DNA of 13,409 nt from Enterobacterales bacterium (lineage in GTDB: Bacteria; Pseudomonadota; Gammaproteobacteria; Enterobacterales; Enterobacteriaceae), in assembly GCA_015654745.1 (NCBI GenBank), contig JAATGH010000204.1, positions 1 through 13,409 on the forward strand, written 5' to 3'. Within the stretch, counting starts at the first letter, position 1. The number at the start of each line of letters is the position of its first letter. Below the pieces are notes generated by a model. The model was not told where the DNA came from and did no database searches. It worked only from the letters and a program-made list of their open reading frames with translations. A program made the translations under genes and the position numbers. Positions 3,751 through 12,805 of the stretch are shown piece by piece.

Positions 3751-5715
3751 TCATTTTCGCAGCGGGATATCCGGCGGTTCCTGAGCCCCCAAGGGCTCGT
3801 CAAAGCGCAGCAGTCGCCCCGCATTGCCCAATACCAGAAGGGTGCTGAGATTATGCAGTACCGCCGCGATCATCGCCCCGCCGGCGCCAAGTAGACCAAA
3901 CGCCGCCGCGGCGACGATCAGCAGCGTCCACCCCAAACCGATCAATACATTGACCTGTAGCGTATGCCGGCACCGGCGGCTAAGTCGTACACAGGTACCG
4001 AGACGGCGCAAATCGTCGCCGATCAGCACCACGTCCGCCGACGCCAGAGCGATATCGGCGCCGCCCATGGCCACACCCACAACGCCCGCTTTCAACGCCA
4101 GGGAGTCGTTGATACCGTCGCCAACCACCATCGGCCGGAAACCTTGGCGAATTTCCGCGCCAACGCAGCGTAATTTATCCTCAGGCAACGCCTGGGCAAT
4201 CACCTGGTCAATCCCCACATCGGCCGCAATACGGCTGGCGACCCGCAGTCGATCGCCGGTCAGCAACAGTTGCCGCCGGAGACCCAGTTGGCGTAGTTCG
4301 GCCAGCGCCCGCGCCGCCTCGGGGCGCACCGTATCCGCCAGCAGCAGCCAGGCGCAAAATCGTCCGTTAAGCGCCAGACCGACAATGGGTCCGTCATGAT
4401 CGGGGATCGCGGCGGTACTCATGCCCCGCTGTTCAAACAGTTCGGCCCGGCCTAGCACGACCTCGCCCAGCCCGCTGTCGGCGACGACTCCGAGCCCCTG
4501 CAGTTCAATGATATTCTCCAGCGCGGGATAGTCATGTCGAGGCACCAACGCGGCGAGCGCGCGACTGATAGGGTGGTTACTGGTCGCGCCCAGACCGGCG
4601 GCCACGCGCTGGAGCTGGTCCAGGTCTGTGCCCGGCTGTGGGCGGATCGCGTGCAGGCGCAGCGCGCCATGGGTCAGCGTGCCGGTTTTATCGATCACCA
4701 GAGAGGTGAGATCCGCCAGTTCTTCGAGAAAGGCCGCGCTGCGGATCAATATCCCGTGCCGGGCGGCAACCGCCAGCCCGGCGATGGCCGTGGCCGGCGC
4801 CGACAAGACCAGGGCGCAGGGGCAGGCGGCGACCAGAACCGCCAGCATGGCCTGGGCATTGTTGGTAATAAACCAGGTCGTCGCGGCAATCATCAGCACC
4901 AGTATCAGATACCGTCCGGCATATCGCTCCAATAGCCGGACAATGGGCGGCTTGGCATGTTCGGCTTGCTGCATCAGGGCAATCACCTTGCCCAGCGTCG
5001 ACCCTTCGCCGATGCGGGTTACTTCAATACGCAGCAGCCCGTCGAGATTGATTGACCCGCCATAAACCTCCTGACCTGCGCATACATCCAGAGGCAACGA
5101 TTCGCCGGTGATCGGCGCAGTATCCAGACTACCCTGCCCCTCCAGCACCCGACCGTCGGCCGGCACCCGATCGCCGGCGCGCACTTCCACCCAATCACCG
5201 GCAACCAGTAAGGCATTATCGATTTCGCAAATATGGCCCTCGGCGTCAATGCGTCTGGCCTGGCTGCGGGTCAGTTGGCCCAGTGCCTCGATGGCCTCTT
5301 GCGAACCGATAACGCTACGCTCCTCCAGCACATGGCCGAAGATCATAATAATGGGCAGCAGCGCGGTGGTTAGCAGATCACCGCTGGCCCAGGCACAGAG
5401 CATGGCCAAGGCAATCAGCTGATCGGTAATACCGTGCAGGCTGGGATGTCGCAGGCTATGCCAGGCGGAGCGGAACACCGGCAGCGCCACCAGCAGCGCG
5501 GCGCTGCCCAGCAGTAATTGGCCTACGCCCTGCTGCTCGGGAGCGTACCCGCGCCACAGCAACCCGAGGATCAGCAGCCCCGAGGCAATCATGGCCAGGC
5601 TAAGCTGGCGTGCCACGCTGAGCCGTTCCGCCCGGGTCAGCATCGTCGCGGTGAGATGGGTATGATGATGCCCATGGCCGTCGCGGGAGGAAGAAGACGT
5701 AGCTGACCTGCTCAT
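3751..5715 (-). CDS. P1B-type heavy-metal translocating P-type ATPase, 654 aa. It has a His-rich N-terminal tail and no HMA (CxxC) domain.
   Basis: Phosphorylation motif DKTGTLT. Hinge motif GDGINDSLALKAG. Actuator-domain TGES. Transmembrane CPC motif in the context ACPCALVLSAP. HP dipeptide (SNHPIS). Eight predicted TM helices. N-terminus MSRSATSSSSRDGHGHHHTH. The start ATG at 5715..5713 overlaps the upstream gene's TGA (ATGA overlap). Confidence 0.9.
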   Translation of the reverse strand: MSRSATSSSSRDGHGHHHTHLTATMLTRAERLSVARQLSLAMIASGLLILGLLWRGYAPEQQGVGQLLLGSAALLVALPVFRSAWHSLRHPSLHGITDQLIALAMLCAWASGDLLTTALLPIIMIFGHVLEERSVIGSQEAIEALGQLTRSQARRIDAEGHICEIDNALLVAGDWVEVRAGDRVPADGRVLEGQGSLDTAPITGESLPLDVCAGQEVYGGSINLDGLLRIEVTRIGEGSTLGKVIALMQQAEHAKPPIVRLLERYAGRYLILVLMIAATTWFITNNAQAMLAVLVAACPCALVLSAPATAIAGLAVAARHGILIRSAAFLEELADLTSLVIDKTGTLTHGALRLHAIRPQPGTDLDQLQRVAAGLGATSNHPISRALAALVPRHDYPALENIIELQGLGVVADSGLGEVVLGRAELFEQRGMSTAAIPDHDGPIVGLALNGRFCAWLLLADTVRPEAARALAELRQLGLRRQLLLTGDRLRVASRIAADVGIDQVIAQALPEDKLRCVGAEIRQGFRPMVVGDGINDSLALKAGVVGVAMGGADIALASADVVLIGDDLRRLGTCVRLSRRCRHTLQVNVLIGLGWTLLIVAAAAFGLLGAGGAMIAAVLHNLSTLLVLGNAGRLLRFDEPLGAQEPPDIPLRK

Positions 5716-6776
5716 TTTTTGGTAGGCTCCCGAGGCTCAGCGCCCTGCAAAATCAGTTGGGCATCGTCGCCCGGATTGATAACGGTGACCGAACCGGCCT
5801 TGGCGAAAAGAGTCGCCACCCTGGCGCGATAAAGACGCCAAAGCATTCCCGGGTCGTTTCCACTTCGCTGCGTCTGCGCCAAGTTACTGATATCCGCAGT
5901 CTGCGCTTGAGCACGGGCCATACGTTCACTGGCGCCGGCGTAGGCAACCTGCAGCGTGCGATCGGCGTTTTGGGCCGCGGCCTGGGTCTGCCGCGCCGCA
6001 TCGTTTTGCGCCATGGCGATAGCCTGTTCAGCCCGTTGGCTGGCGGTCAGCACGGCGTTAAAGGCATCCACCGCTTCATTTGGCAACGATGACTGTACGT
6101 CTACCCGTTCTATTTCAATGCCCAGCCCGCCGCCGGCGGTGGCCAACGCATCAAGGCTGCGGTTTATCGCCTGTTGCAAATCGCCGCGCAGCCGCTCACG
6201 GCGCTGGGCCGCGCCGCTGTCACCGCTTACCAGTTCCGGCCGGGCAACCAGGATCGTGTCAAGATCGCGCGAGGCGCAGACCATTACCGCCGCGCGTTCC
6301 ACCAACCGGTTTAGCGCGGGTTCAACATGACTGTCCTCCAGCACCCAGGCATAGGGGTCGGTGATGCGGTAAAAGACGCGGACATCCAGCTGCGCCACGC
6401 CCGCGTCGCCGGTGAGCAAATAACCGGATCCGGCGAGTGCGTCGCCGCTCATGCTGATGTCATAGCGGATCTCGCGCGCTTGGTCCGACCGTAGCAGCGC
6501 TTCCACCCGATGTTCGATAACCCTTCCCGGCGAAGGAAGTATCACTACCTGTTCAAACGGCCGTGGCCACGCCCAAAGCAACCCGGCATGTTCAATACGT
6601 TGCATTGCCCCGAAACGCAGAACCACCGCCTGACTGTCGGGATTGATTTGGCGCACATTGGATATCAGCCAGCCGCACGCGGCCAGCAGCGTCAGCGCGT
6701 ACAGCGCCAGAAACACCAGCCGGCCCGTCTGGATCCAGGGTCCCTGTGGATTCGGCCCTCTCTCCGGCCGGTTCAC
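5712..6776 (-). CDS. SPFH/Band-7 (HflK/HflC-like) membrane protein, 354 aa, with a GTG start.
   Basis: N-terminal TM anchor (LVFLALYALTLLAACGWLI), then an SPFH core (AVVLRFGAMQRIEHAGLLWAWPRPFEQV ... DVRVFYRITDPYAWV) and an Ala/Gln-rich coiled C-terminus. The GTG start at 6776..6774 overlaps the upstream stop (GTGA). A GAGGGA Shine-Dalgarno sits 8 nt upstream. Confidence 0.75.
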   Translation of the reverse strand: MNRPERGPNPQGPWIQTGRLVFLALYALTLLAACGWLISNVRQINPDSQAVVLRFGAMQRIEHAGLLWAWPRPFEQVVILPSPGRVIEHRVEALLRSDQAREIRYDISMSGDALAGSGYLLTGDAGVAQLDVRVFYRITDPYAWVLEDSHVEPALNRLVERAAVMVCASRDLDTILVARPELVSGDSGAAQRRERLRGDLQQAINRSLDALATAGGGLGIEIERVDVQSSLPNEAVDAFNAVLTASQRAEQAIAMAQNDAARQTQAAAQNADRTLQVAYAGASERMARAQAQTADISNLAQTQRSGNDPGMLWRLYRARVATLFAKAGSVTVINPGDDAQLILQGAEPREPTKK

Positions 6777-8017
6777 GGATGCGATCCCTCGGCGGGGGCA
6801 TCGGATGCGGCCCCCGCTGCGGCGGCCGGCGGCCGGTGTCCTGTGGGTGGCGCCGGCTGCGGCGCGGAGGGGGCTATCGGTTGCACTGCGCCACTGGTGA
6901 TGGGTAAGCGCGGCGGGCCGTCAACCAGCACGCGAAACGGCGCGGCGTCGGTACGCAAAACCAGACGGGTAGCGGGAGTAATCAAGGTGCCCAGGGTATC
7001 CAGAGAGCGCAGCAGGTTATATAACTCTGGCGAGCTGGCGTAGGCTTTGCCATAGATATCCGCTGACTCGACCTGCGATCGTGCTTCGATGGCGGCGGCC
7101 TTTACCGTAGCATCGGCTTGTATGATGCGGGCGTCTCGTTCCGCGCCCGAGCGGATTTCCGCCGCCTTGCGCTTCCCTTCCGCCGTGCGTTCGGTGGCGA
7201 TGGTCTCGCGTTCGGCGCGCATGCGATCGACCGTGGCGCCCAGGGTCACCGCCGGCAACGTCAGGCGTTCGATGCCCACGCTGATTAACCGTATTCCGTA
7301 ACTGTCTCGTAGGGGCTGCTCAATCTGCGCGCGTAGGCGTTGTTAAACCTGCGCAAGCTGTACCCGGGCGGGATCGGTGTTCACCAGTCGGTCCAACGCA
7401 AAACCGCTGGTCGTGGTTTCCAGCGCCGATCCGACAAAAGTGCGGATTTGCCGGGCCGCTTCATCCGGCTGATTTTGTACCGCGCGCATAAATCGTTCCA
7501 CATGCCCCGGATCGGCCTGTACCTGCCAAACCGCGTAAGCCTGGATGATAATGCGCAGACCATCGCGGGTGCCAACGTCCTGCAGGCCGCTGGACGTCGT
7601 GCGTAGTCGCAAATCAACCGGGATGGCGGTCTCGAAGGGCATCGGCCAGCGCCAGGCGATGCCCGGCTTAAGCAGCACCCGCACGGGATTACCAAAGCGG
7701 GTGATAACCGTGGCCTCCCCCGAACGAACCTGCACCAGACTGGCGGCGGCGGCAATCACCATGACCAGCGCGACGGCCAGTCCCACGCGCCGCCGCCGCG
7801 ATGCGGGAGTGAGCATTGCGTCATGGTCATGGTCATGGTCATGGTCATGGTCATGGTCATGGTCATGGTCATGGTCATGGTCATGGTCATGGAAGGAATG
7901 GTGCCCTCCATGATCTCCGTGTTCACCATCGTGTTCCGGTGGCTGACCGGAACGGGAGGATATCTGACTCAAAGAAGGTCTCCGGCATCGATTACTGGTT
8001 ATCAATAGACTGGCCAT
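6773..8017 (-). pseudogene. HflK/HflC-like SPFH gene encoding an N-terminal His/Asp-rich tail that includes (HD)12. It is interrupted by a single in-frame TAA at 7345..7343. The ORF track splits it into a 224-aa and a 168-aa ORF.
   Basis: The two track ORFs (7343..8017 and 6773..7279) are in the same frame, separated by exactly 21 sense codons after the TAA. My translation reads ...ARVQLAQV*QRLRAQIEQPLRDSYGIRLISVGIERLTLPAV.... The upstream part has a TM segment plus the SPFH N-terminus (ATVITRFGNPVRVLLKPGIAWRWPMPFE). The downstream part is a typical HflC C-terminal half (VDRMRAERE...AIEARSQVESADIYGKAYASSPELYNLLRSLDTLGTLI). A read-through product would be about 414 aa. This could be a nonsense mutation, a sequencing error or read-through, and I cannot distinguish these from sequence alone. 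Confidence 0.6.
7821..7892. repeat. Perfect hexanucleotide tandem repeat (TCATGG)x12. On the minus strand it reads CATGAC, encoding (His-Asp)12.
   Basis: Seen directly: 72 bp of uninterrupted TCATGG. The flanking minus-strand codons are degenerate copies (gaa cac gat ggt gaa cac gga gat cat gga ggg cac cat = EHDGEHGDHGGHH). It lies inside the 5' part of the interrupted SPFH gene. The plus-strand ORFs reading SWSW..., HGHG... and VMVM... are frame shadows of this tract. Confidence 0.95.
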
Positions 8018-10019
8018 TTGGCGCGTCCGGTCGCTGCGGCGGCGGCGGTCCTAACGGCTGCTTTGCCTGGGGTTTGCCCACATCTGGACCCGCCGCGCCG
8101 GCATCGATCGGCGCGCTGAAATTTCTCAAATCAAGGGTGGGCGACGCGCCCGCGCTGATACGATGATCAAGCAGCAACATGGGCGTATTGGCCAGCGCCT
8201 GGCTAAGACGGCTGAAATAGGTCTCACTAAGAAAGGCTTGTCCGGCAGTTCGCCATGCCTGGCGTTGTGCGGTGAAACGCAGCTCCGCCGCGCGGGCGCC
8301 GGCGATATTCTCATGCGCACCCGCATCGGCCCGATCGGCGCGCATGCCGGCATCGAGCCGGGCGGCGCTGAGCAGCGCTGACGCATTGCCACCTTCGCGC
8401 GCAACCAGCGCCTGCGCCGCGATCTGCGCCGCCTGCACCCCATGGTAAGCATTGGCGGCTCCTGCCGGGGGATGGATAGCCTCAATGACGATGGCCAACA
8501 TTTCCACCCCGCTATTTAGGGCATCCAGCCGGTCTTGCACCTGACGGTGAATATTGTCGGCCAGACCCGCACGCTGGCTGCCCAACACGCCATCGAGCGT
8601 CAAAGACGCAAACTCGCGCACCAATATCTGATTGGCGGTGCTGCGGATTAACGAAGGAATATCGGCGCTGTTGTAGGCGGATGCCAGCGCCGCCGTATCG
8701 GTTAAACCGACGCGATAGATAAAACGCACATCCATATCGACGATCTGAAAGCTTTGCGCATTACCCATGTCGCTGGCAATAACCTGTGATTTCTCATTGC
8801 CGTGAACGCCATCCCACAGCCGGTTGGCGCTCTGTGGCGCGTCGCCTTCCGCCGCCACCGGCTCCTGATGCGCTTCCCCTGCCGCCACCAGCGTGGTCAG
8901 TTCATGCACTTCGCCATTTTCCACTGGCAATACGCGGCCGAACGGCCAGGGTAAACCCACATGCAGACCGGGAACCCATACCGCCGCGGGCTTGCCGAAA
9001 CGTTCATAAATACCGCGGCCGTTAACGGCGACTTCGCTAACGCCCGTCAGCATCCAGGCCACCAGCATCAATAGGATCAGCACCGGCGCAAACGCCCGCC
9101 GCATAAACGAAAAGGCCCAGACCTGGCGAAGATCGATACCAAAACGCTGCTTAATGTCCTCTTGTAGCGACGCCATAGATTGCGGCGGCCAACGCAGTTG
9201 GCCGGCGATAAAACTTGCGCCGATAAGCCGCGGCTCCTGACCAGGCCGTTGGGGATAAAAGAGGGAAAACAGCGCCCTGCCGGCGATTTCCAGCGCCACC
9301 AGCGCCGGTAATAGGCCGGTGAACATGGCCAGGTATGCCGGCCAGGGCAACGACGCGTCGGAAAACCATAAACAAAGCGCACACAACAGCGCCACGGCGA
9401 TCGCCACCCGGAGAAAGGGACCCAGGACCGCGGCCTCCGGCCACTCGGCTTCGGTGAGGGAGGCGAGGTAGCGCTCGAACAGCACTAAGGCAACGGCGGA
9501 CAAGAGCAGCAGGCCGGCGCCGACGTTAATCATCCTGCCGGGACCGGCGCTGGGTATGGCCAACCGCCATCCCAGAAAGACCATCAGCAACGCCAGCAGC
9601 GACAGCCCGATGATCCACAGCGCATCGGTGCCGACGCGCTGCCCATATTTTGCCAGGCGGTCAAGTCCGGCGCTCAGCCAGGTCAGTTTGGCCATACTGT
9701 CGACTACTGGGCCATCGGCGCCGCCCGCCGATGGCGCTGCCATAGACAGCAACGCGGCCGCCCGCCAGCGGGTCACGCCCCAGGCGGACTGAAACATCGC
9801 GATCAGCACCAGCAATACCGCGCTGATATTGCACAGGACCGGCAACCCTATTGAATCGGCGGCGTAAACATCAAACACCAGCGCGATGACGATCAACAGA
9901 CCACAAAGATTGCCCAACCCGAGCAGTAGCCAATACAGCCGCCGCGCCTGCCATTCAGCCTGCAGAAAACGCGGGAGCCGTGCCGGGCTCGCCTGCTCAT
10001 GCTCTGAATTATCGTCCAT
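7992..10019 (-). CDS. Fusion protein of about 675 aa. An N-terminal polytopic membrane domain of about 300 aa (roughly 6 TM, family not recognised) is followed by an SPFH/Band-7 domain and an Ala/Pro-rich C-terminal tail.
   Basis: SPFH core: SEVAVNGRGIYERFGKPAAVWVPGLHVGLPWPFGRV ... FQIVDMDVRFIYRV. The C-terminus is HflK-like and Ala-rich, ending in PPPPQRPDAPNGQ. I prefer the start ATG at 10019..10017, which has GGAG 5 nt upstream. The ORF-track ATG at 10079 has no SD. The 3' end overlaps the next SPFH gene's start by 26 nt. Confidence 0.65.
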   Translation of the reverse strand: MDDNSEHEQASPARLPRFLQAEWQARRLYWLLLGLGNLCGLLIVIALVFDVYAADSIGLPVLCNISAVLLVLIAMFQSAWGVTRWRAAALLSMAAPSAGGADGPVVDSMAKLTWLSAGLDRLAKYGQRVGTDALWIIGLSLLALLMVFLGWRLAIPSAGPGRMINVGAGLLLLSAVALVLFERYLASLTEAEWPEAAVLGPFLRVAIAVALLCALCLWFSDASLPWPAYLAMFTGLLPALVALEIAGRALFSLFYPQRPGQEPRLIGASFIAGQLRWPPQSMASLQEDIKQRFGIDLRQVWAFSFMRRAFAPVLILLMLVAWMLTGVSEVAVNGRGIYERFGKPAAVWVPGLHVGLPWPFGRVLPVENGEVHELTTLVAAGEAHQEPVAAEGDAPQSANRLWDGVHGNEKSQVIASDMGNAQSFQIVDMDVRFIYRVGLTDTAALASAYNSADIPSLIRSTANQILVREFASLTLDGVLGSQRAGLADNIHRQVQDRLDALNSGVEMLAIVIEAIHPPAGAANAYHGVQAAQIAAQALVAREGGNASALLSAARLDAGMRADRADAGAHENIAGARAAELRFTAQRQAWRTAGQAFLSETYFSRLSQALANTPMLLLDHRISAGASPTLDLRNFSAPIDAGAAGPDVGKPQAKQPLGPPPPQRPDAPNGQSIDNQ

Positions 10020-10079: not shown

Positions 10080-10236
10080 GAATACAGTGAACGCTGTGCA
10101 TTATAGGAGATCGTCGTGAGTATTTAGCGTAACTTTATAACATCACTAAATACCCGAAAACAGCTTTATTACCAAAACTATGTAACCATACATATAGTTA
10201 GGAACATGCTAGGTTTATGCCCGCCACGCATAAACG
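10080..10236 (-). promoter_or_regulatory. AT-rich 157-bp intergenic region upstream of the SPFH-SPFH-SPFH-ATPase cluster. Probable promoter region.
   Basis: A perfect TATAAT on the minus strand (plus coordinates 10105..10100) sits 20 nt before the ORF-track ATG at 10079 and about 80 nt before the SD-supported ATG at 10019. No good -35 or TG extension. AT-rich in an otherwise GC-rich locus. Confidence 0.3.
10214..10234. other. Perfect inverted repeat TTTATGC-N7-GCATAAA, 3 nt downstream of the ABC ATPase stop codon.
   Basis: Seen directly. The stem is 7 bp and AT-rich, and no U-tract follows on the minus-strand transcript. It is therefore not a canonical intrinsic terminator. It could be a weak hairpin or a protein-binding palindrome. 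Confidence 0.3.
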
Positions 10237-11016
10237 TTAAAGCATATGCCGCCGGGCTTCGACGCGCACCAGGTGCAGGATTTGCTGCTTGATCACAGTG
10301 TAGCCCGGCGCCTGCGCCAGGGTTTCGATATTCCGGTCCCGGCCGAAGGGTAAAATCACTTCATCGACTATTTTGCCCGGCCGCGCGGACATCACCAAAA
10401 TCCGATCGGCGAGAAACAGCGCCTCTTCCACATCGTGGGTAACAAATAAAATCGTCGTGCCGGTCTGCCGCCAGGCATCCCGCAACAGTTCCTGCATCAT
10501 CATTCGTGTTTGCGCGTCCAGCGCCCCAAAGGGTTCATCCATTAACAGCACCTCCGGGTCCGGCAGCCAGGCCCGAGCCAGGGCCACCCGCTGTTTCATC
10601 CCGCCGGACAGTTGCCATGGCGCATGCTGGCCAAAGCCGTCCAAACCCACCCGTGTGAGCCAATCGCCAGCCTGGGCATTGGCCTCGGCTTTCTTTAACC
10701 CGGCCATGCGCGGGCCAAAGGAGATATTGTCCAATACCGATAGCCAGGGAAAAAGATTGGGCTGCTGGAACACCATGCCACGACTCGGATGCGGGCCGCG
10801 CACCGGACGACCGGCGCAAAGGATCCGCCCCTGCTGCGCAAGGGTAAAACCGGCAATCAGGTTCAGTATGGTGGACTTACCGCAGCCGGAAGGGCCGAGC
10901 AGCACCACGAATTCACCTTGGTCCAAGGCGAGCGACACATCGTCCAGTACCCTCAGCGCCTGGGGTTGCCCGGAGAATGTCAGCGTGACGTGCTCCAGGG
11001 TAATATGCTGCGTCAT
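10237..11016 (-). CDS. ABC transporter ATP-binding protein of the NitT/TauT family (TauB/SsuB-like), about 260 aa.
   Basis: Walker A LLGPSGCGKST. Q-loop. ABC signature LSGGMKQRVALARA. Walker B LLMDEPFGALD. H-loop VTHD. The ORF-track 398-aa version is over-extended into the permease gene. The real start is the ATG at 11016..11014, which has GGAAGGA 4-5 nt upstream and forms an ATGA overlap with the permease stop. Confidence 0.85.
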   Translation of the reverse strand: MTQHITLEHVTLTFSGQPQALRVLDDVSLALDQGEFVVLLGPSGCGKSTILNLIAGFTLAQQGRILCAGRPVRGPHPSRGMVFQQPNLFPWLSVLDNISFGPRMAGLKKAEANAQAGDWLTRVGLDGFGQHAPWQLSGGMKQRVALARAWLPDPEVLLMDEPFGALDAQTRMMMQELLRDAWRQTGTTILFVTHDVEEALFLADRILVMSARPGKIVDEVILPFGRDRNIETLAQAPGYTVIKQQILHLVRVEARRHML

Positions 11017-11786
11017 GCGTCCTTCCCTGCCCAGGGTACTAGCCATTTTTGCAATCCCACAATCAGTAAATCCAGTAAATAGCCAATGGCGCCCAGCAGC
11101 AGGATGCCAATCATCACGATATCGGTGCGCAAATAGGCACTGGCGTTGATCACCATCCATCCTAAGCCCGAGGTAGCCGCCACCAGTTCGGCGGCAATCA
11201 GCGAGGTCCAACCGACGCCTATGGACAGCCGCACGCTGGTAAACAGCTCGGGCAACGTATCCGGCAGCACCACGCGCCAAAAAATCTGCCGACGGGAGGC
11301 GCCAAGGGTCTGCGCCACACGGATCCGGGCGCCCCCGATTCGCTCCACCGCGGCGGCGGCGCCCACCACTACGCTTAGGAACGTGGCGATAAAAATCAGG
11401 AAAAATTTCGACGACTCGCCGATACCCAGCCATACCACCGCTAATGGAATCAGGGCGATTTTAGGTAACGGCCGCAAAAACTGGACAAAGGGATTGAGCG
11501 CGGCGGCGATCGGCTGCGACAATCCCATCAGCAGGCCCAGGGGAATGCCGCAGGCGATGGCCACGGTAAAGGCGCTGAGCGCGCGTGCCAGGCTAATGGC
11601 AATATGCTGCCATAACGGTACCTGACGGTAGCCGTCATGGAGCAGCTCAACGGTGGTTTCAGCAATATCGGAGAGCGGAGGCAGCAATAAGGGGTCGACC
11701 CAATGGCGTACTCCGGCGACTTGCCACAGCAGAAAAAACAGCGTCACCGAGACGACGCTGATAGCAACATGATTAACCGCTTTCAT
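11013..11786 (-). CDS. ABC transporter permease of the TauC/SsuC family (binding-protein-dependent inner-membrane component), 257 aa.
   Basis: Six predicted TM helices and an EAA-like loop region (ALSAFTVAIACGIPLGLLMG...). It lies 8 nt downstream of the SBP gene and is ATGA-coupled to the ATPase gene. Confidence 0.8.
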   Translation of the reverse strand: MKAVNHVAISVVSVTLFFLLWQVAGVRHWVDPLLLPPLSDIAETTVELLHDGYRQVPLWQHIAISLARALSAFTVAIACGIPLGLLMGLSQPIAAALNPFVQFLRPLPKIALIPLAVVWLGIGESSKFFLIFIATFLSVVVGAAAAVERIGGARIRVAQTLGASRRQIFWRVVLPDTLPELFTSVRLSIGVGWTSLIAAELVAATSGLGWMVINASAYLRTDIVMIGILLLGAIGYLLDLLIVGLQKWLVPWAGKDA

Positions 11787-11794
11787 AAGTGTGG

Positions 11795-12805
11795 TTATTT
11801 ACCCGCGGCCTGGCGAATAAAACTCGAATCGATGGCGTCTTTCCAGGTGGTGGGGATATCGCGTTTACGCACATCACCGGTACTTTCCAGAAAATGGGCG
11901 GTTTTATCCACCGCTTGGCCAATGCCGCTGCGATCGGTATCGGTGCCGTCGCCCAGCCAGGCGGCGGTGCCCTGCTCGGCAATGGACGGATATTCCAGAC
12001 CCGCCAACGTATTGGTGGCGGTGCTTACCGGCGCGCCAACCTCCTTGGCGACGATAGCGGCGGCAGCCTCGGGATTGCGACGGAACTCATCGACTTTTTG
12101 CTGATGCACTTTGAGGAAATTGATTACCACCTGGGGATATTGTTGGGCGAACGCTTTGCGCACCACATAGTTGTTATAAATAAGATAACCATCTTTCTGC
12201 AGATCTTTGGTGGCAAATACCTGATGGCCGCCTGAGGCCTCCAGCTCTTGGGCGAAGGGCGCCCAAACATAACCGGCGTCGATATCGCCGCGTTTCCAGG
12301 CCGCCACCATTTCCGCCGGGCGCAGAGGGATCAGGGTGATTTTGCTGCGATCAAGCTTATGTACGGCGATCGCCGCTTCCAGCGCATACTGGGACGTGGA
12401 ATTAGGTGGATAACCTACCCGTTTGCCTTCTATATCCTGCAGCCGGTTGATACCCTGCTTGCCAATCAAACGTTCATAGGTGGCGATGACGCCGGACACG
12501 CCGACGATTTCCACCGGCAGCTTACGCACGATGCCGGCGGTGGCCGGGCTGGAGCCGAAGTTGGCAATATCGATGGCATCACTGGCGAAAAAATTCAGCG
12601 CATCGGCGCCCGAGGCGAACTGTACCCATTTAACGTGGGTGCCCAGCGCCTTTTCCAGCGAACCGTCCTTTTTGGCCAGCAGTATCACCTGCGAACCACC
12701 GCTATAGGCAATGCGCACTTCATCCGGCAGCGCCGCAGCGTGAGCCTGGGCCAAAGTGACCAATACACCGGCGGCGCCGAGTATGGCCGTCATTATTTTA
12801 CGCAT
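11795..12805 (-). CDS. Periplasmic substrate-binding protein of the taurine/aliphatic-sulfonate/nitrate (NMT1/TauA/SsuA) family, 336 aa.
   Basis: Sec signal peptide MRKIMTAILGAAGVLVTLAQAHA. AGGGGA Shine-Dalgarno 6 nt before the ATG at 12805. Motifs resemble E. coli TauA as I recall it: NFGSSP...PVEIV, AAWKRGDIDAGYVWAP, YVVRKAFAQQYPQVV. No tauD/ssuD-type oxygenase lies in the window, so the substrate is unassigned. Confidence 0.7.
   Translation of the reverse strand: MRKIMTAILGAAGVLVTLAQAHAAALPDEVRIAYSGGSQVILLAKKDGSLEKALGTHVKWVQFASGADALNFFASDAIDIANFGSSPATAGIVRKLPVEIVGVSGVIATYERLIGKQGINRLQDIEGKRVGYPPNSTSQYALEAAIAVHKLDRSKITLIPLRPAEMVAAWKRGDIDAGYVWAPFAQELEASGGHQVFATKDLQKDGYLIYNNYVVRKAFAQQYPQVVINFLKVHQQKVDEFRRNPEAAAAIVAKEVGAPVSTATNTLAGLEYPSIAEQGTAAWLGDGTDTDRSGIGQAVDKTAHFLESTGDVRKRDIPTTWKDAIDSSFIRQAAGK

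What the first reader, a model, noticed from the sequence alone, without database searches (positions are those of the whole stretch)
7992..10019. Unusual fusion of a polytopic membrane domain to an SPFH domain
SPFH proteins normally have a single N-terminal anchor helix. Here about 300 residues with roughly six hydrophobic helices precede the SPFH core (helices such as LYWLLLGLGNLCGLLIVIALVF, ALWIIGLSLLALLMVFLGW and VLGPFLRVAIAVALLCALCLWF). I do not recognise the family of this domain. It is not the NfeD OB-fold partner normally found next to stomatin-like genes. It may be the specificity or partner-recruiting module of the SPFH assembly.
Basis: partly seen in the sequence, partly recalled or inferred. 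Interest (0 to 1): 0.6.

Follow-up and report, generated by a model that had tools for sequence, protein, structure and literature searches.

The report
Seven-helix SPFH protein of zinc-pump operon
The gene really encodes an SPFH (HflK-like) protein preceded by a conserved, undescribed six-helix membrane domain; it is the counterpart of Pseudomonas aeruginosa PA2439, the first gene of a zinc-starvation operon that always pairs three SPFH proteins with the HmtA metal pump, so the extra domain most likely ties that pump into an SPFH cage.

Summary
**Observation: confirmed.** Window 7992-10019 (minus strand) is one uninterrupted 675-aa ORF. It has six hydrophobic helices, a conserved cytoplasmic motif (RFGIDLRQxWAF), a seventh helix that is the usual SPFH anchor, and a periplasmic HflK-like SPFH/coiled-coil part.

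**Not an artefact.**
- Full-length homologs at 52-63% identity are common in Pseudomonas.
- All 73 complete distant homologs carry Band_7.
- The three apparent stand-alone N-domain genes I checked are frameshifted copies of the fused gene.

**The N-domain has no known family.** It has no Pfam or NCBIfam model and no sequence relative in the PDB. A confident AF2 model (pLDDT 86.6) resembles CDF zinc-transporter membrane domains only weakly and below threshold. It lacks their metal ligands.

**Context explains it.**
- The same module appears in 80/80 Pseudomonas loci, 4/4 distant contigs, P. aeruginosa and plasmids: polytopic SPFH, then an HflC-like gene, then an HflK-like gene, then a P1B ATPase.
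- This matches the published gene order of the Zur-regulated PA2439-PA2435 (hmtA) operon.
- A Zur-box-like site lies upstream.

**Mechanism (inferred).** The protein is the HflK-type subunit of a heteromeric SPFH cage, and its membrane bundle docks the ATPase.

**Novelty.** The family is known and annotated, but this domain is not described in the literature I could search.

The parts
10128..10142 (-). Zur-box-like imperfect palindrome TGTTATAAAGTTACG, 120 nt upstream of the start codon
   Evidence: All 81 upstream regions of homologous operons carry GTTATA[TA][CG]GTAAC within 4 mismatches or fewer of the enterobacterial Zur consensus. Only 2 of 258 random control windows do. The window copy alone has 4 mismatches and is not significant on its own (one search found nothing at 3 or fewer). 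Zur binding to the PA2439 promoter was shown by EMSA in P. aeruginosa (PMC8531726).
10100..10105 (-). Perfect TATAAT hexamer, candidate -10 element
   Evidence: Read directly. The consensus scan did not call a promoter because no good -35 is present. A role as the operon promoter is inferred.
9120..10019 (-). Gene A, residues 1-300: six-helix membrane domain of an undescribed family plus cytoplasmic loops, including the conserved RFGIDLRQxWAF motif
   Evidence: Residues conserved across 73 diverse homologs are R86, E182, R183, R204, E244 (100%), R248 and D296. All lie on the predicted cytoplasmic half.
9039..9119 (-). Gene A, residues 301-327: seventh helix, the canonical SPFH membrane anchor
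   Evidence: W301 and W322 are 93-97% conserved.
8394..9026 (-). Gene A, residues 332-542: periplasmic SPFH/Band_7 domain
   Evidence: PF01145 E=4.5e-18. TIGR01933 hflK scores 54 bits, below the 159-bit cutoff. Conserved His at 353, 372, 406, 516 (100%) and 526.
7992..8393 (-). Gene A, residues 543-675 plus stop: long coiled-coil helix and conserved C-terminal DHR...PTLDLRxF segment
   Evidence: AF2 helix 525-611. The closest solved relative is E. coli HflK 7VHP/7WI3, E=5.8e-11, over profile positions 472-619.
6773..8017 (-). Gene B: HflC-like SPFH protein with a His/Asp-rich cytoplasmic N-tail, interrupted by an in-frame TAA at 7343-7345. The likely true start is TTG 7972.
   Evidence: Band_7 and TIGR01932 hflC halves lie on either side of the stop, in the same frame. 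Homologs have GAA/GAG at that codon in 81 of 83 loci. A (CATGAC)12 array at 7820-7892 encodes the (HD)n tail.
5712..6776 (-). Gene C: second HflK-like SPFH protein (354 aa) with a single anchor helix
   Evidence: PF01145 E=1.9e-19; TIGR01933 92 bits. GTGA start/stop overlap with gene B.
3751..5715 (-). Gene D: P1B-type heavy-metal ATPase of the HmtA type (654 aa). It has a His-rich N-terminus, CPC in the transport helix, and HN where ZntA has its TM6 Asp.
   Evidence: TIGR01525 508 bits. Sequence. 71.5% identical to the ATPase of the P. aeruginosa module. ATGA overlap with gene C. The ZntA comparison comes from my own recollection of its TM6.

Best explanation
Gene A corresponds to P. aeruginosa PA2439 (PA14_33070). 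PA2439 is the first gene of the Zur-controlled module PA2439-PA2438-PA2437-hmtA. The protein is an inner-membrane protein with its N-terminus in the cytoplasm. It has a six-helix bundle of an undescribed family, a seventh anchor helix, and a periplasmic HflK-like SPFH, coiled-coil and C-terminal cap region.

Proposed mechanism (inferred): under zinc limitation the three co-translated SPFH paralogs assemble into an HflK/C-type periplasmic cage. Genes A and C are HflK-like and gene B is HflC-like. The anchor helices of the cage fence off a patch of inner membrane. P1B ATPases have essentially no periplasmic domain for a cage to hold, so the six-helix bundle of subunit A would serve as the intramembrane and cytoplasm-facing docking platform that keeps the HmtA-type pump inside the cage. 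Its conserved Glu/Arg cluster (R86, E182, R183, R204, E244, R248) and the FGIDL motif face the cytoplasmic leaflet. There they could contact the pump or the His-rich tails of gene B and the ATPase.

Shown here: the architecture, its conservation, the obligate fusion, the invariant gene linkage and the Zur-like box. From the literature: zinc regulation. Inferred: cage formation, the docking role, and the equation of the P. aeruginosa module I retrieved with PA2439-PA2435.
For: Architecture and topology.

Conservation: more than 1,100 homologs, with the best 120 full-length at 52-63% identity. 405 GTDB species representatives carry it. The N-domain profile finds 243 clusters, and all 73 complete members carry Band_7.

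Linkage: the same four genes in the same order occur in 80/80 Pseudomonas loci, in four distant MAG or metagenome contexts at 22-34% identity, in P. aeruginosa, and on Klebsiella and Rhizobium plasmids. Genes B/C and C/D overlap by 4 nt.

Link to PA2439: window proteins are 52%, 73-79%, 60% and 71.5% identical to a P. aeruginosa module. That module's order of three SPFH genes plus a P-type ATPase matches the published PA2439/PA14_33070, PA2438/PA14_33080, PA2437/PA14_33110 and PA2435 hmtA.

Zinc: transcripts and proteins of PA2435-2439 rise under Zn depletion, and Zur shifts the PA2439 promoter (PMC4542158, PMC8531726, PMC11761036). The Zur-like box is conserved upstream in 81/81 loci. His-rich cytoplasmic tails are present on gene B and on the ATPase.

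HflK relationship: the best PDB sequence match is E. coli HflK.
Against: No contact between the N-domain and the ATPase, or among the three SPFH proteins, was tested or could be tested here. Cage formation is extrapolated from E. coli HflK/C. The match to HflK is partial: TIGR01933 scores 54 bits against a cutoff of 159. I did not see the PAO1 locus tags themselves, so the identity of the retrieved P. aeruginosa module with PA2439-PA2435 rests on gene order and gene content. The N-domain evolves faster than its partners (42-50% identity against 71-79% for genes B and D), which is unexpected for a tight docking surface. A PA14 triple SPFH deletion had only marginal phenotypes, although it was not tested under zinc limitation (PMC13086221). 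One study saw no Zn repression of hmtA mRNA. In this window gene B carries a premature stop, so the module may not be functional in this organism.
Confidence: 0.45

Rival explanations
1. The six-helix domain is a degenerate relative of the CDF (YiiP/ZnT) transporter membrane domain. It would still conduct or gate ions (Zn2+, H+), making subunit A a transport component rather than a passive adaptor.
Confidence: 0.12
2. The domain acts on the SPFH assembly itself rather than on the pump. It could set the stoichiometry or opening of the cage, organise anionic lipids through its cytoplasmic Arg/Glu cluster, or sense cytoplasmic zinc.
For: Genes A and C are both HflK-like, so they could compete for the same position next to the HflC-like gene B. 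The conserved residues are charged and lie at the cytoplasmic membrane interface. The most conserved parts are TM4-TM6 and the loop before TM7, next to the anchor helix.
Against: This does not explain why the domain is found only in modules that contain the ATPase. No known sensor or lipid-binding motif was detected.
Confidence: 0.25
3. The three SPFH proteins are alternative HflK/HflC modulators of the zinc metalloprotease FtsH under zinc limitation. The polytopic domain would bind FtsH or its membrane substrates, and the ATPase would only be a neighbour.
For: Annotation pipelines and the zinc papers call them HflK/HflC. The nearest solved structure is HflK from the FtsH complex.
Against: Scores to the HflK and HflC equivalog models are far below their cutoffs. 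The genes are not in the hfq-hflX-hflK-hflC context, and P. aeruginosa has a separate bona fide hflKC (PMC13086221). Linkage to the ATPase holds at 22-34% identity and on plasmids, with overlapping stop and start codons.
Confidence: 0.1
4. The fusion is an artefact: two genes joined by a frameshift or assembly error.
For: Some public assemblies show a separate N-domain ORF upstream of an SPFH ORF.
Against: In those cases the other reading frame continues without a gap through TM7 into SPFH, so it is the split form that is the error or mutation. The window ORF is continuous, and hundreds of independent genomes share it at full length.
Confidence: 0.01

Closest known systems
P. aeruginosa PA2439 / PA14_33070 (annotated 'HflK family'; one of PaFlo5-7), first gene of the PA2439-PA2434 hmtA cluster
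   Same: The P. aeruginosa homolog has the same length class (660 aa) and 52% identity over residues 10-651. It has the same downstream genes: an HflC-like gene with a His-rich tail, an HflK-like gene and an HmtA-type ATPase. A Zur-like box lies upstream. Published Zn-limitation induction and Zur EMSA apply to that operon.
   Different: The window comes from a different, unidentified organism; the closest named hits are Sodalis and Acerihabitans. The HflC-like partner carries a premature stop. The Zur-like box is more divergent and sits further upstream. The papers I could read on PA2437-2439 do not describe the polytopic N-domain; PMC13086221, for example, has no occurrence of 'N-terminal', 'topology' or 'ATPase'.
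E. coli HflK (HflK/C-FtsH cage; PDB 7VHP, 7WI3)
   Same: SPFH domain followed by a long coiled coil and a conserved C-terminal segment. N-in topology with a periplasmic SPFH domain. Encoded next to an HflC-like partner.
   Different: HflK has one transmembrane helix, whereas this protein has seven. The TIGR01933 score is 54 bits against a cutoff of 159. The genomic partner is a P1B ATPase rather than hfq-hflX, and there are three paralogs instead of two. His replaces conserved HflK residues in the IHPPAGAANAYH segment; that comparison with HflK is from my memory of its sequence.
CDF transporters (YiiP/FieF, ZnT/SLC30)
   Different: No significant score, no conserved metal-binding Asp/His in TM2 or TM5, no cytoplasmic CTD, and hhalign probability 0.6%.
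NfeD-stomatin (e.g. YbbJ/QmcA) operon pairs
   Same: A membrane protein functionally coupled to an SPFH protein.
   Different: NfeD is a separate gene with an OB-fold. No NfeD or OB-fold signal is present here, and the membrane module is covalently fused N-terminal to the SPFH anchor.

Membership tests
SPFH / Band 7 superfamily | Match to PF01145 above the gathering threshold | tested here: met
   66.4 bits against a cutoff of 23.6, residues 332-542. All 73 diverse homologs also match.
HflK (FtsH modulator, TIGR01933 / NF008181 equivalogs) | Score above the equivalog cutoff | tested here: not met
   TIGR01933 scores 54.3 bits against 159.4; NF008181 scores 20.9 against 660.
HflK (FtsH modulator) | Single N-terminal transmembrane helix and the hflX-hflK-hflC context | tested here: not met
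   Seven hydrophobic helices. The neighbours are two SPFH genes and a P1B ATPase.
HflK (FtsH modulator) | Physical and functional interaction with FtsH | not testable with these tools
   No interaction data are available here.
PA2439-type subunit of the SPFH x3 + HmtA module | Full-length similarity, including the six-helix N-domain, to the P. aeruginosa protein | tested here: met
   52% identity over residues 10-651 to the 660-aa P. aeruginosa protein.
PA2439-type subunit of the SPFH x3 + HmtA module | Conserved order: polytopic SPFH, HflC-like, HflK-like, P1B ATPase | tested here: met
   Window; 80/80 loci; distant contexts; P. aeruginosa; plasmids.
PA2439-type subunit of the SPFH x3 + HmtA module | Zur-dependent expression | tested here: inconclusive
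   A Zur-like box is conserved in 81/81 upstream regions, but the window copy has 4 mismatches to the consensus. Regulation was shown only in P. aeruginosa.
Cation diffusion facilitator (PF01545) | Sequence match to the family model, or profile similarity to a member | tested here: not met
   1 of 32 members hits at E=0.009 and the window protein does not. hhalign against YiiP gives probability 0.6%.
Cation diffusion facilitator (PF01545) | Conserved Asp/His metal site in TM2 and TM5 | tested here: not met
   No conserved Asp, His or Cys in the six helices. The conserved residues are Arg and Glu near the cytoplasmic face.
Cation diffusion facilitator (PF01545) | Six-helix fold similarity at a significant level | tested here: inconclusive
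NfeD | NfeD or OB-fold domain | tested here: not met
   No such Pfam hit at E<=10.

The most novel reading that the evidence does not exclude
The four-gene module builds a new kind of caged metal-transport machine. A periplasmic chamber made of three SPFH paralogs and lined by the conserved histidines of subunit A would capture Zn/Cu. The six-helix, CDF-like bundle of subunit A would be the intramembrane conduit or coupling element that lets a P1B ATPase, normally an exporter, work in zinc acquisition. That would explain the long-puzzling 'importer' behaviour of HmtA.
Probability: 0.12. Interest if true: 0.85.

Novelty: new variant of a known kind. Interest (0 to 1): 0.55.

Why it matters
SPFH proteins (stomatin, prohibitin, flotillin, HflK/C) are understood as cage or ring scaffolds held by one anchor helix or a hairpin, and very few clients are known. 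Here the client is defined genetically: a P1B metal ATPase is always encoded with three SPFH paralogs, and one of them carries a dedicated six-helix membrane domain.

HmtA is the only P1B ATPase reported to import metal, and reviews still call that unusual and in need of confirmation (PMC10393844). From what I recall of the original work (not read here), it was studied by overexpression without its three conserved partners. If the partners, and in particular this domain, are part of the working machine, the question of how HmtA contributes to zinc acquisition becomes directly testable. The system would also give SPFH biology a tractable pair of scaffold and client.

The module occurs on conjugative plasmids as well, which is relevant to the spread of metal-homeostasis traits.

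Tried and rejected
- **Family searches on the N-domain.** Pfam and NCBIfam gave no family. At E<=10 there were only scattered single hits.
- **PDB sequence search with the domain profile.** Only two chance hits, at E=0.078 and 0.47.
- **AFDB50 fold search.** The library was not available.
- **Stand-alone N-domain genes.** Twelve short hits from the profile search were read and three were looked up in their contigs. They first looked like separate genes followed by three Band_7 genes. Three-frame translation shows each is a frameshift inside or just before TM7.
- **Strict Zur consensus in the window.** No match at 3 mismatches or fewer. The site was recognised only by comparison with 80 homologous upstream regions.
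- **Sigma-70 scan.** It found no convincing promoter on the gene's strand.
- **E. coli genomes.** No homolog by DNA search.
- **First AF2 run on the full-length protein.** Poor for the SPFH half (pLDDT 60), so it was not used for fold search.
- **Source organism.** I did not identify it beyond the nearest named hits (Sodalis, Acerihabitans).
Full report
**1. What is in the sequence**

The finding lies on the minus strand. Window 7992-10019 is one open reading frame of 675 codons. A longer ORF from ATG 10079 exists. However, 17 aligned homologs begin MRVDLD... opposite MDDNSE..., and GGAG lies 5 nt before the ATG at 10019, so 10019 is the start.

A 19-residue hydropathy scan finds seven hydrophobic segments: 31-49, 57-75, 133-151, 163-181, 198-216, 228-254 and 309-327. 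The seventh sits immediately before the Band_7 match (residues 332-542, E=4.5e-18), so it is the ordinary SPFH anchor. The unusual part is the six helices before it.

Lys+Arg counts are 19 in the N-terminus and the loops after TM2, TM4 and TM6. They are 2 in the loops after TM1, TM3 and TM5. This is a strong positive-inside signal for N-in and C-out, which puts the SPFH domain in the periplasm as in HflK.

**2. The fusion is not an artefact**

- A protein search returned more than 1,100 homologs. The best 120 are all about 650 aa, cover 93-97% of the query in most cases and are 52-63% identical. They are mostly from Pseudomonas, with some from Sodalis, Acerihabitans and Martelella.
- I built a profile of the N-terminal 310 residues only and searched it against 1.84 billion cluster representatives. 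It found 243 clusters at E<=0.001.
- All 73 hits of 567 aa or more that I aligned, down to 20% identity, carry Band_7. By the same crude scan, 53 of the 73 show the 6+1 helix pattern.
- The short hits needed care. Several end in adapter-derived or out-of-frame-looking sequence.
- Three short hits sit in long contigs as a separate ORF followed by three Band_7 genes and a P-type ATPase. Three-frame translation shows that in each case another frame continues without a gap through TM7 into the SPFH domain. One example reads ...AGIAVL | GWLLSGLTEIQLHQRGIYERFG.
- These are therefore frameshifted copies of the fused gene. They may be errors or mutations; one comes from a nanopore assembly and one shift is at a C-run. 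I found no convincing stand-alone form.

**3. What the N-domain looks like**

- It has no Pfam or NCBIfam model and no sequence relative in the PDB.
- With a 32-sequence alignment of diverse N-domains, AlphaFold2 gives a confident all-helical model (pLDDT 86.6, pTM 0.81).
- Foldseek against the PDB finds nothing significant. The best hits are the CDF zinc transporters YiiP, ZnT1, SLC30A10, ZnT3 and ZnT8, with E>=0.34 and TM-score 0.27-0.40.
- A profile-sequence comparison with E. coli YiiP gives a probability of 0.6%.
- Across 73 homologs no Asp, His or Cys is conserved in the six helices. The conserved polar residues are R86, E182, R183, R204, E244 (100%), R248 and D296. By the predicted topology they all lie in the cytoplasmic half, next to the conserved FGIDLRQxWA motif before TM7.
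- TM4-TM6 and that loop form the conserved core. TM1-TM2 and the loop at residues 95-130 vary.
- I treat the CDF resemblance as a lead only, not as homology.

**4. The surroundings explain the gene**

Four genes follow each other directly on the same strand.

- **Gene A:** the polytopic SPFH protein described above.
- **Gene B (6773-8017):** HflC-like.
- **Gene C (5712-6776):** a second HflK-like protein with a single anchor helix.
- **Gene D (3751-5715):** a P1B heavy-metal ATPase. It scores 508 bits on TIGR01525 and has a His-rich N-terminus and a CPC motif.

B/C and C/D overlap by 4 nt (GTGA and ATGA), which suggests translational coupling.

The same four genes occur in the same order in these places:
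- all 80 GTDB loci retrieved, out of 405 positive species representatives;
- four distant MAG or metagenome contexts where gene A is only 22-34% identical;
- a P. aeruginosa assembly;
- plasmids of Rhizobium, Burkholderia and Cupriavidus, and a conjugative Klebsiella aerogenes plasmid where the module lies next to a Tn3 transposase.

None of 5,426 complete E. coli genomes has it.

**5. Link to published work**

The window proteins are 52% (A), 73-79% (B), 60% (C) and 71.5% (D) identical to the P. aeruginosa module. That module's order matches the published cluster: PA2439/PA14_33070, PA2438/PA14_33080, PA2437/PA14_33110 and PA2435 hmtA. I did not retrieve the PAO1 locus tags themselves, so this equation rests on gene order and content.

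In P. aeruginosa:
- the genes are induced 5.6- to 14-fold in a znuA mutant (PMC4542158);
- the proteins rise under zinc depletion (PMC11761036);
- Zur shifts the PA2439 promoter in a zinc-dependent way, and PA2439 is named as the first gene of the locus (PMC8531726).

A 2026 survey of P. aeruginosa SPFH proteins calls the three proteins PaFlo5-7. It notes their patchy, HGT-like distribution and finds only marginal phenotypes for the triple deletion. It did not test zinc limitation, and it does not mention the ATPase, the topology or an N-terminal domain (PMC13086221). Reviews of HmtA describe its importer behaviour as unusual and unconfirmed and do not discuss the SPFH partners.

**6. Signs of zinc control and metal handling in the window**

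- All 81 upstream regions of the homologous operons carry GTTATA[TA][CG]GTAAC, within 4 mismatches or fewer of the enterobacterial Zur consensus. Only 2 of 258 control windows do.
- The window copy is TGTTATAAAGTTACG at 10128-10142. It is weak on its own and sits upstream of a perfect TATAAT at 10100-10105.
- Gene B has an N-terminal cytoplasmic (HD)n tail, encoded by a perfect (CATGAC)12 array at 7820-7892.
- His-rich tails are also present in the Pseudomonas and P. aeruginosa orthologs and on several of the ATPases. They are absent from the most distant modules.
- The periplasmic part of gene A has six conserved histidines: H353, H372, H406, H516 (100%), H526 and H619.

**7. Mechanism**

Shown here:
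- a conserved 7-helix SPFH protein;
- its obligate fusion;
- its invariant linkage to two further SPFH paralogs and a P1B ATPase;
- a conserved Zur-like box.

Zinc-limitation induction in P. aeruginosa comes from the literature.

Inferred by analogy with E. coli HflK/C, the nearest solved relative (E=5.8e-11): the three SPFH proteins form a heteromeric periplasmic cage whose anchors enclose a membrane patch. A and C are both HflK-like and B is HflC-like, so A and C may occupy the same kind of position next to B.

P1B ATPases expose almost nothing to the periplasm. A cage therefore needs a membrane-embedded element to hold such a client. The six-helix bundle, with its conserved cytoplasm-facing charge cluster, is the obvious candidate. 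I give this docking model about 0.45.

The rivals are:
- a role in cage assembly, gating or lipid organisation (0.25);
- a degenerate CDF-like conducting module (0.12);
- alternative FtsH modulators (0.10);
- an artefact (0.01).

**8. Verdict**

The proposed stand-alone survey came back negative.

The gene family is already in databases, annotated 'protease modulator HflK', and its operon is a known member of the Zur regulon. The window gene is therefore a new member of a known family. The polytopic domain itself has no family model and is not described in the literature I could search. A polytopic SPFH protein tied to a metal pump is an unusual variant of the SPFH theme.

Interest is moderate to good (0.55). 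It gives a concrete, testable handle on how HmtA works and on how an SPFH scaffold selects its client.

Noticed in passing
window 7343-7345 (minus strand), inside the HflC-like gene 6773-8017: An in-frame TAA splits the SPFH domain of the HflC-like gene into ORFs of 224 and 168 aa in the same frame. 81 of 83 homologous loci have GAA or GAG (Glu) at this codon, so it is a single G-to-T nonsense change. It could be a pseudogene, a strain mutation or a sequencing error.
   Followed up: partly
window 7820-7892: A perfect hexanucleotide array (CATGAC on the coding strand, 12.2 copies, 100% matches) encodes an (HD)n run in the cytoplasmic N-tail of the HflC-like protein. Such an array is prone to slippage. 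Orthologs have His-rich tails of different sequence.
   Followed up: partly
window 10128-10142 and 10100-10105 (minus strand): A Zur-box-like site (TGTTATAAAGTTACG) lies upstream of a perfect TATAAT. The motif GTTATA[TA][CG]GTAAC is present upstream of all 81 homologous operons examined, mostly about 50 nt from the start codon, but 120 nt here.
   Followed up: yes
window 6773-6776 and 5712-5715: 4-nt stop/start overlaps (GTGA and ATGA) link the HflC-like gene to the HflK-like gene, and the HflK-like gene to the ATPase gene. This suggests translational coupling.
   Followed up: no
window 7992-9026 (periplasmic part of gene A): Six histidines are conserved across 73 diverse homologs: H353, H372, H406, H516 (100%), H526 and H619. 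They are possible periplasmic metal ligands. The IHPPAGAANAYH segment stands where, as I recall it, HflK has ARPPEEVKAAFDD.
   Followed up: no
L093, L095/L096 and L097 (loci from public assemblies): Frameshifted copies of the fused gene are called as a separate N-domain ORF plus an SPFH ORF, each broken in or just before TM7. One shift is at a C-run and one is in a nanopore assembly. They could mislead domain-architecture surveys.
   Followed up: yes
L091 (K. aerogenes plasmid pYD-K10_1) and L092 (Rhizobium tumorigenes plasmid); 36 PLSDB records in all: The whole four-gene module occurs on plasmids and chromids, once on a conjugative MOBF/MPF_F plasmid beside a Tn3-family transposase. Gene D of the window is about 75% identical to Pseudomonas ATPases although the closest named hits to gene A are Enterobacterales. 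Both points fit horizontal transfer.
   Followed up: partly
L084/L085 (metagenome contigs): In a distant version of the module, a TonB-dependent receptor is encoded divergently upstream and a FUR-family gene lies a few genes downstream. A TonB-dependent receptor also precedes the module in L097.
   Followed up: no
window 10237-11786: The listed ABC ATPase ORF (10237-11433, 398 aa) overlaps the permease ORF (11013-11786) by 420 nt. The ABC_tran domain starts only at residue 163, so the true start is probably much further downstream. Together with the NMT1/OpuAC-type binding protein (11795-12805), these form a taurine/sulfonate-like ABC importer unrelated to the finding.
   Followed up: no
window 3751-5715 (ATPase): The ATPase has CPC in the transport helix, but its last helix reads LHNLSTLLVLGNAGRLL, with His-Asn at the position of the metal-binding Asp of ZntA-type pumps (comparison from memory). 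This suggests a distinct P1B subgroup for HmtA-type pumps.
   Followed up: no
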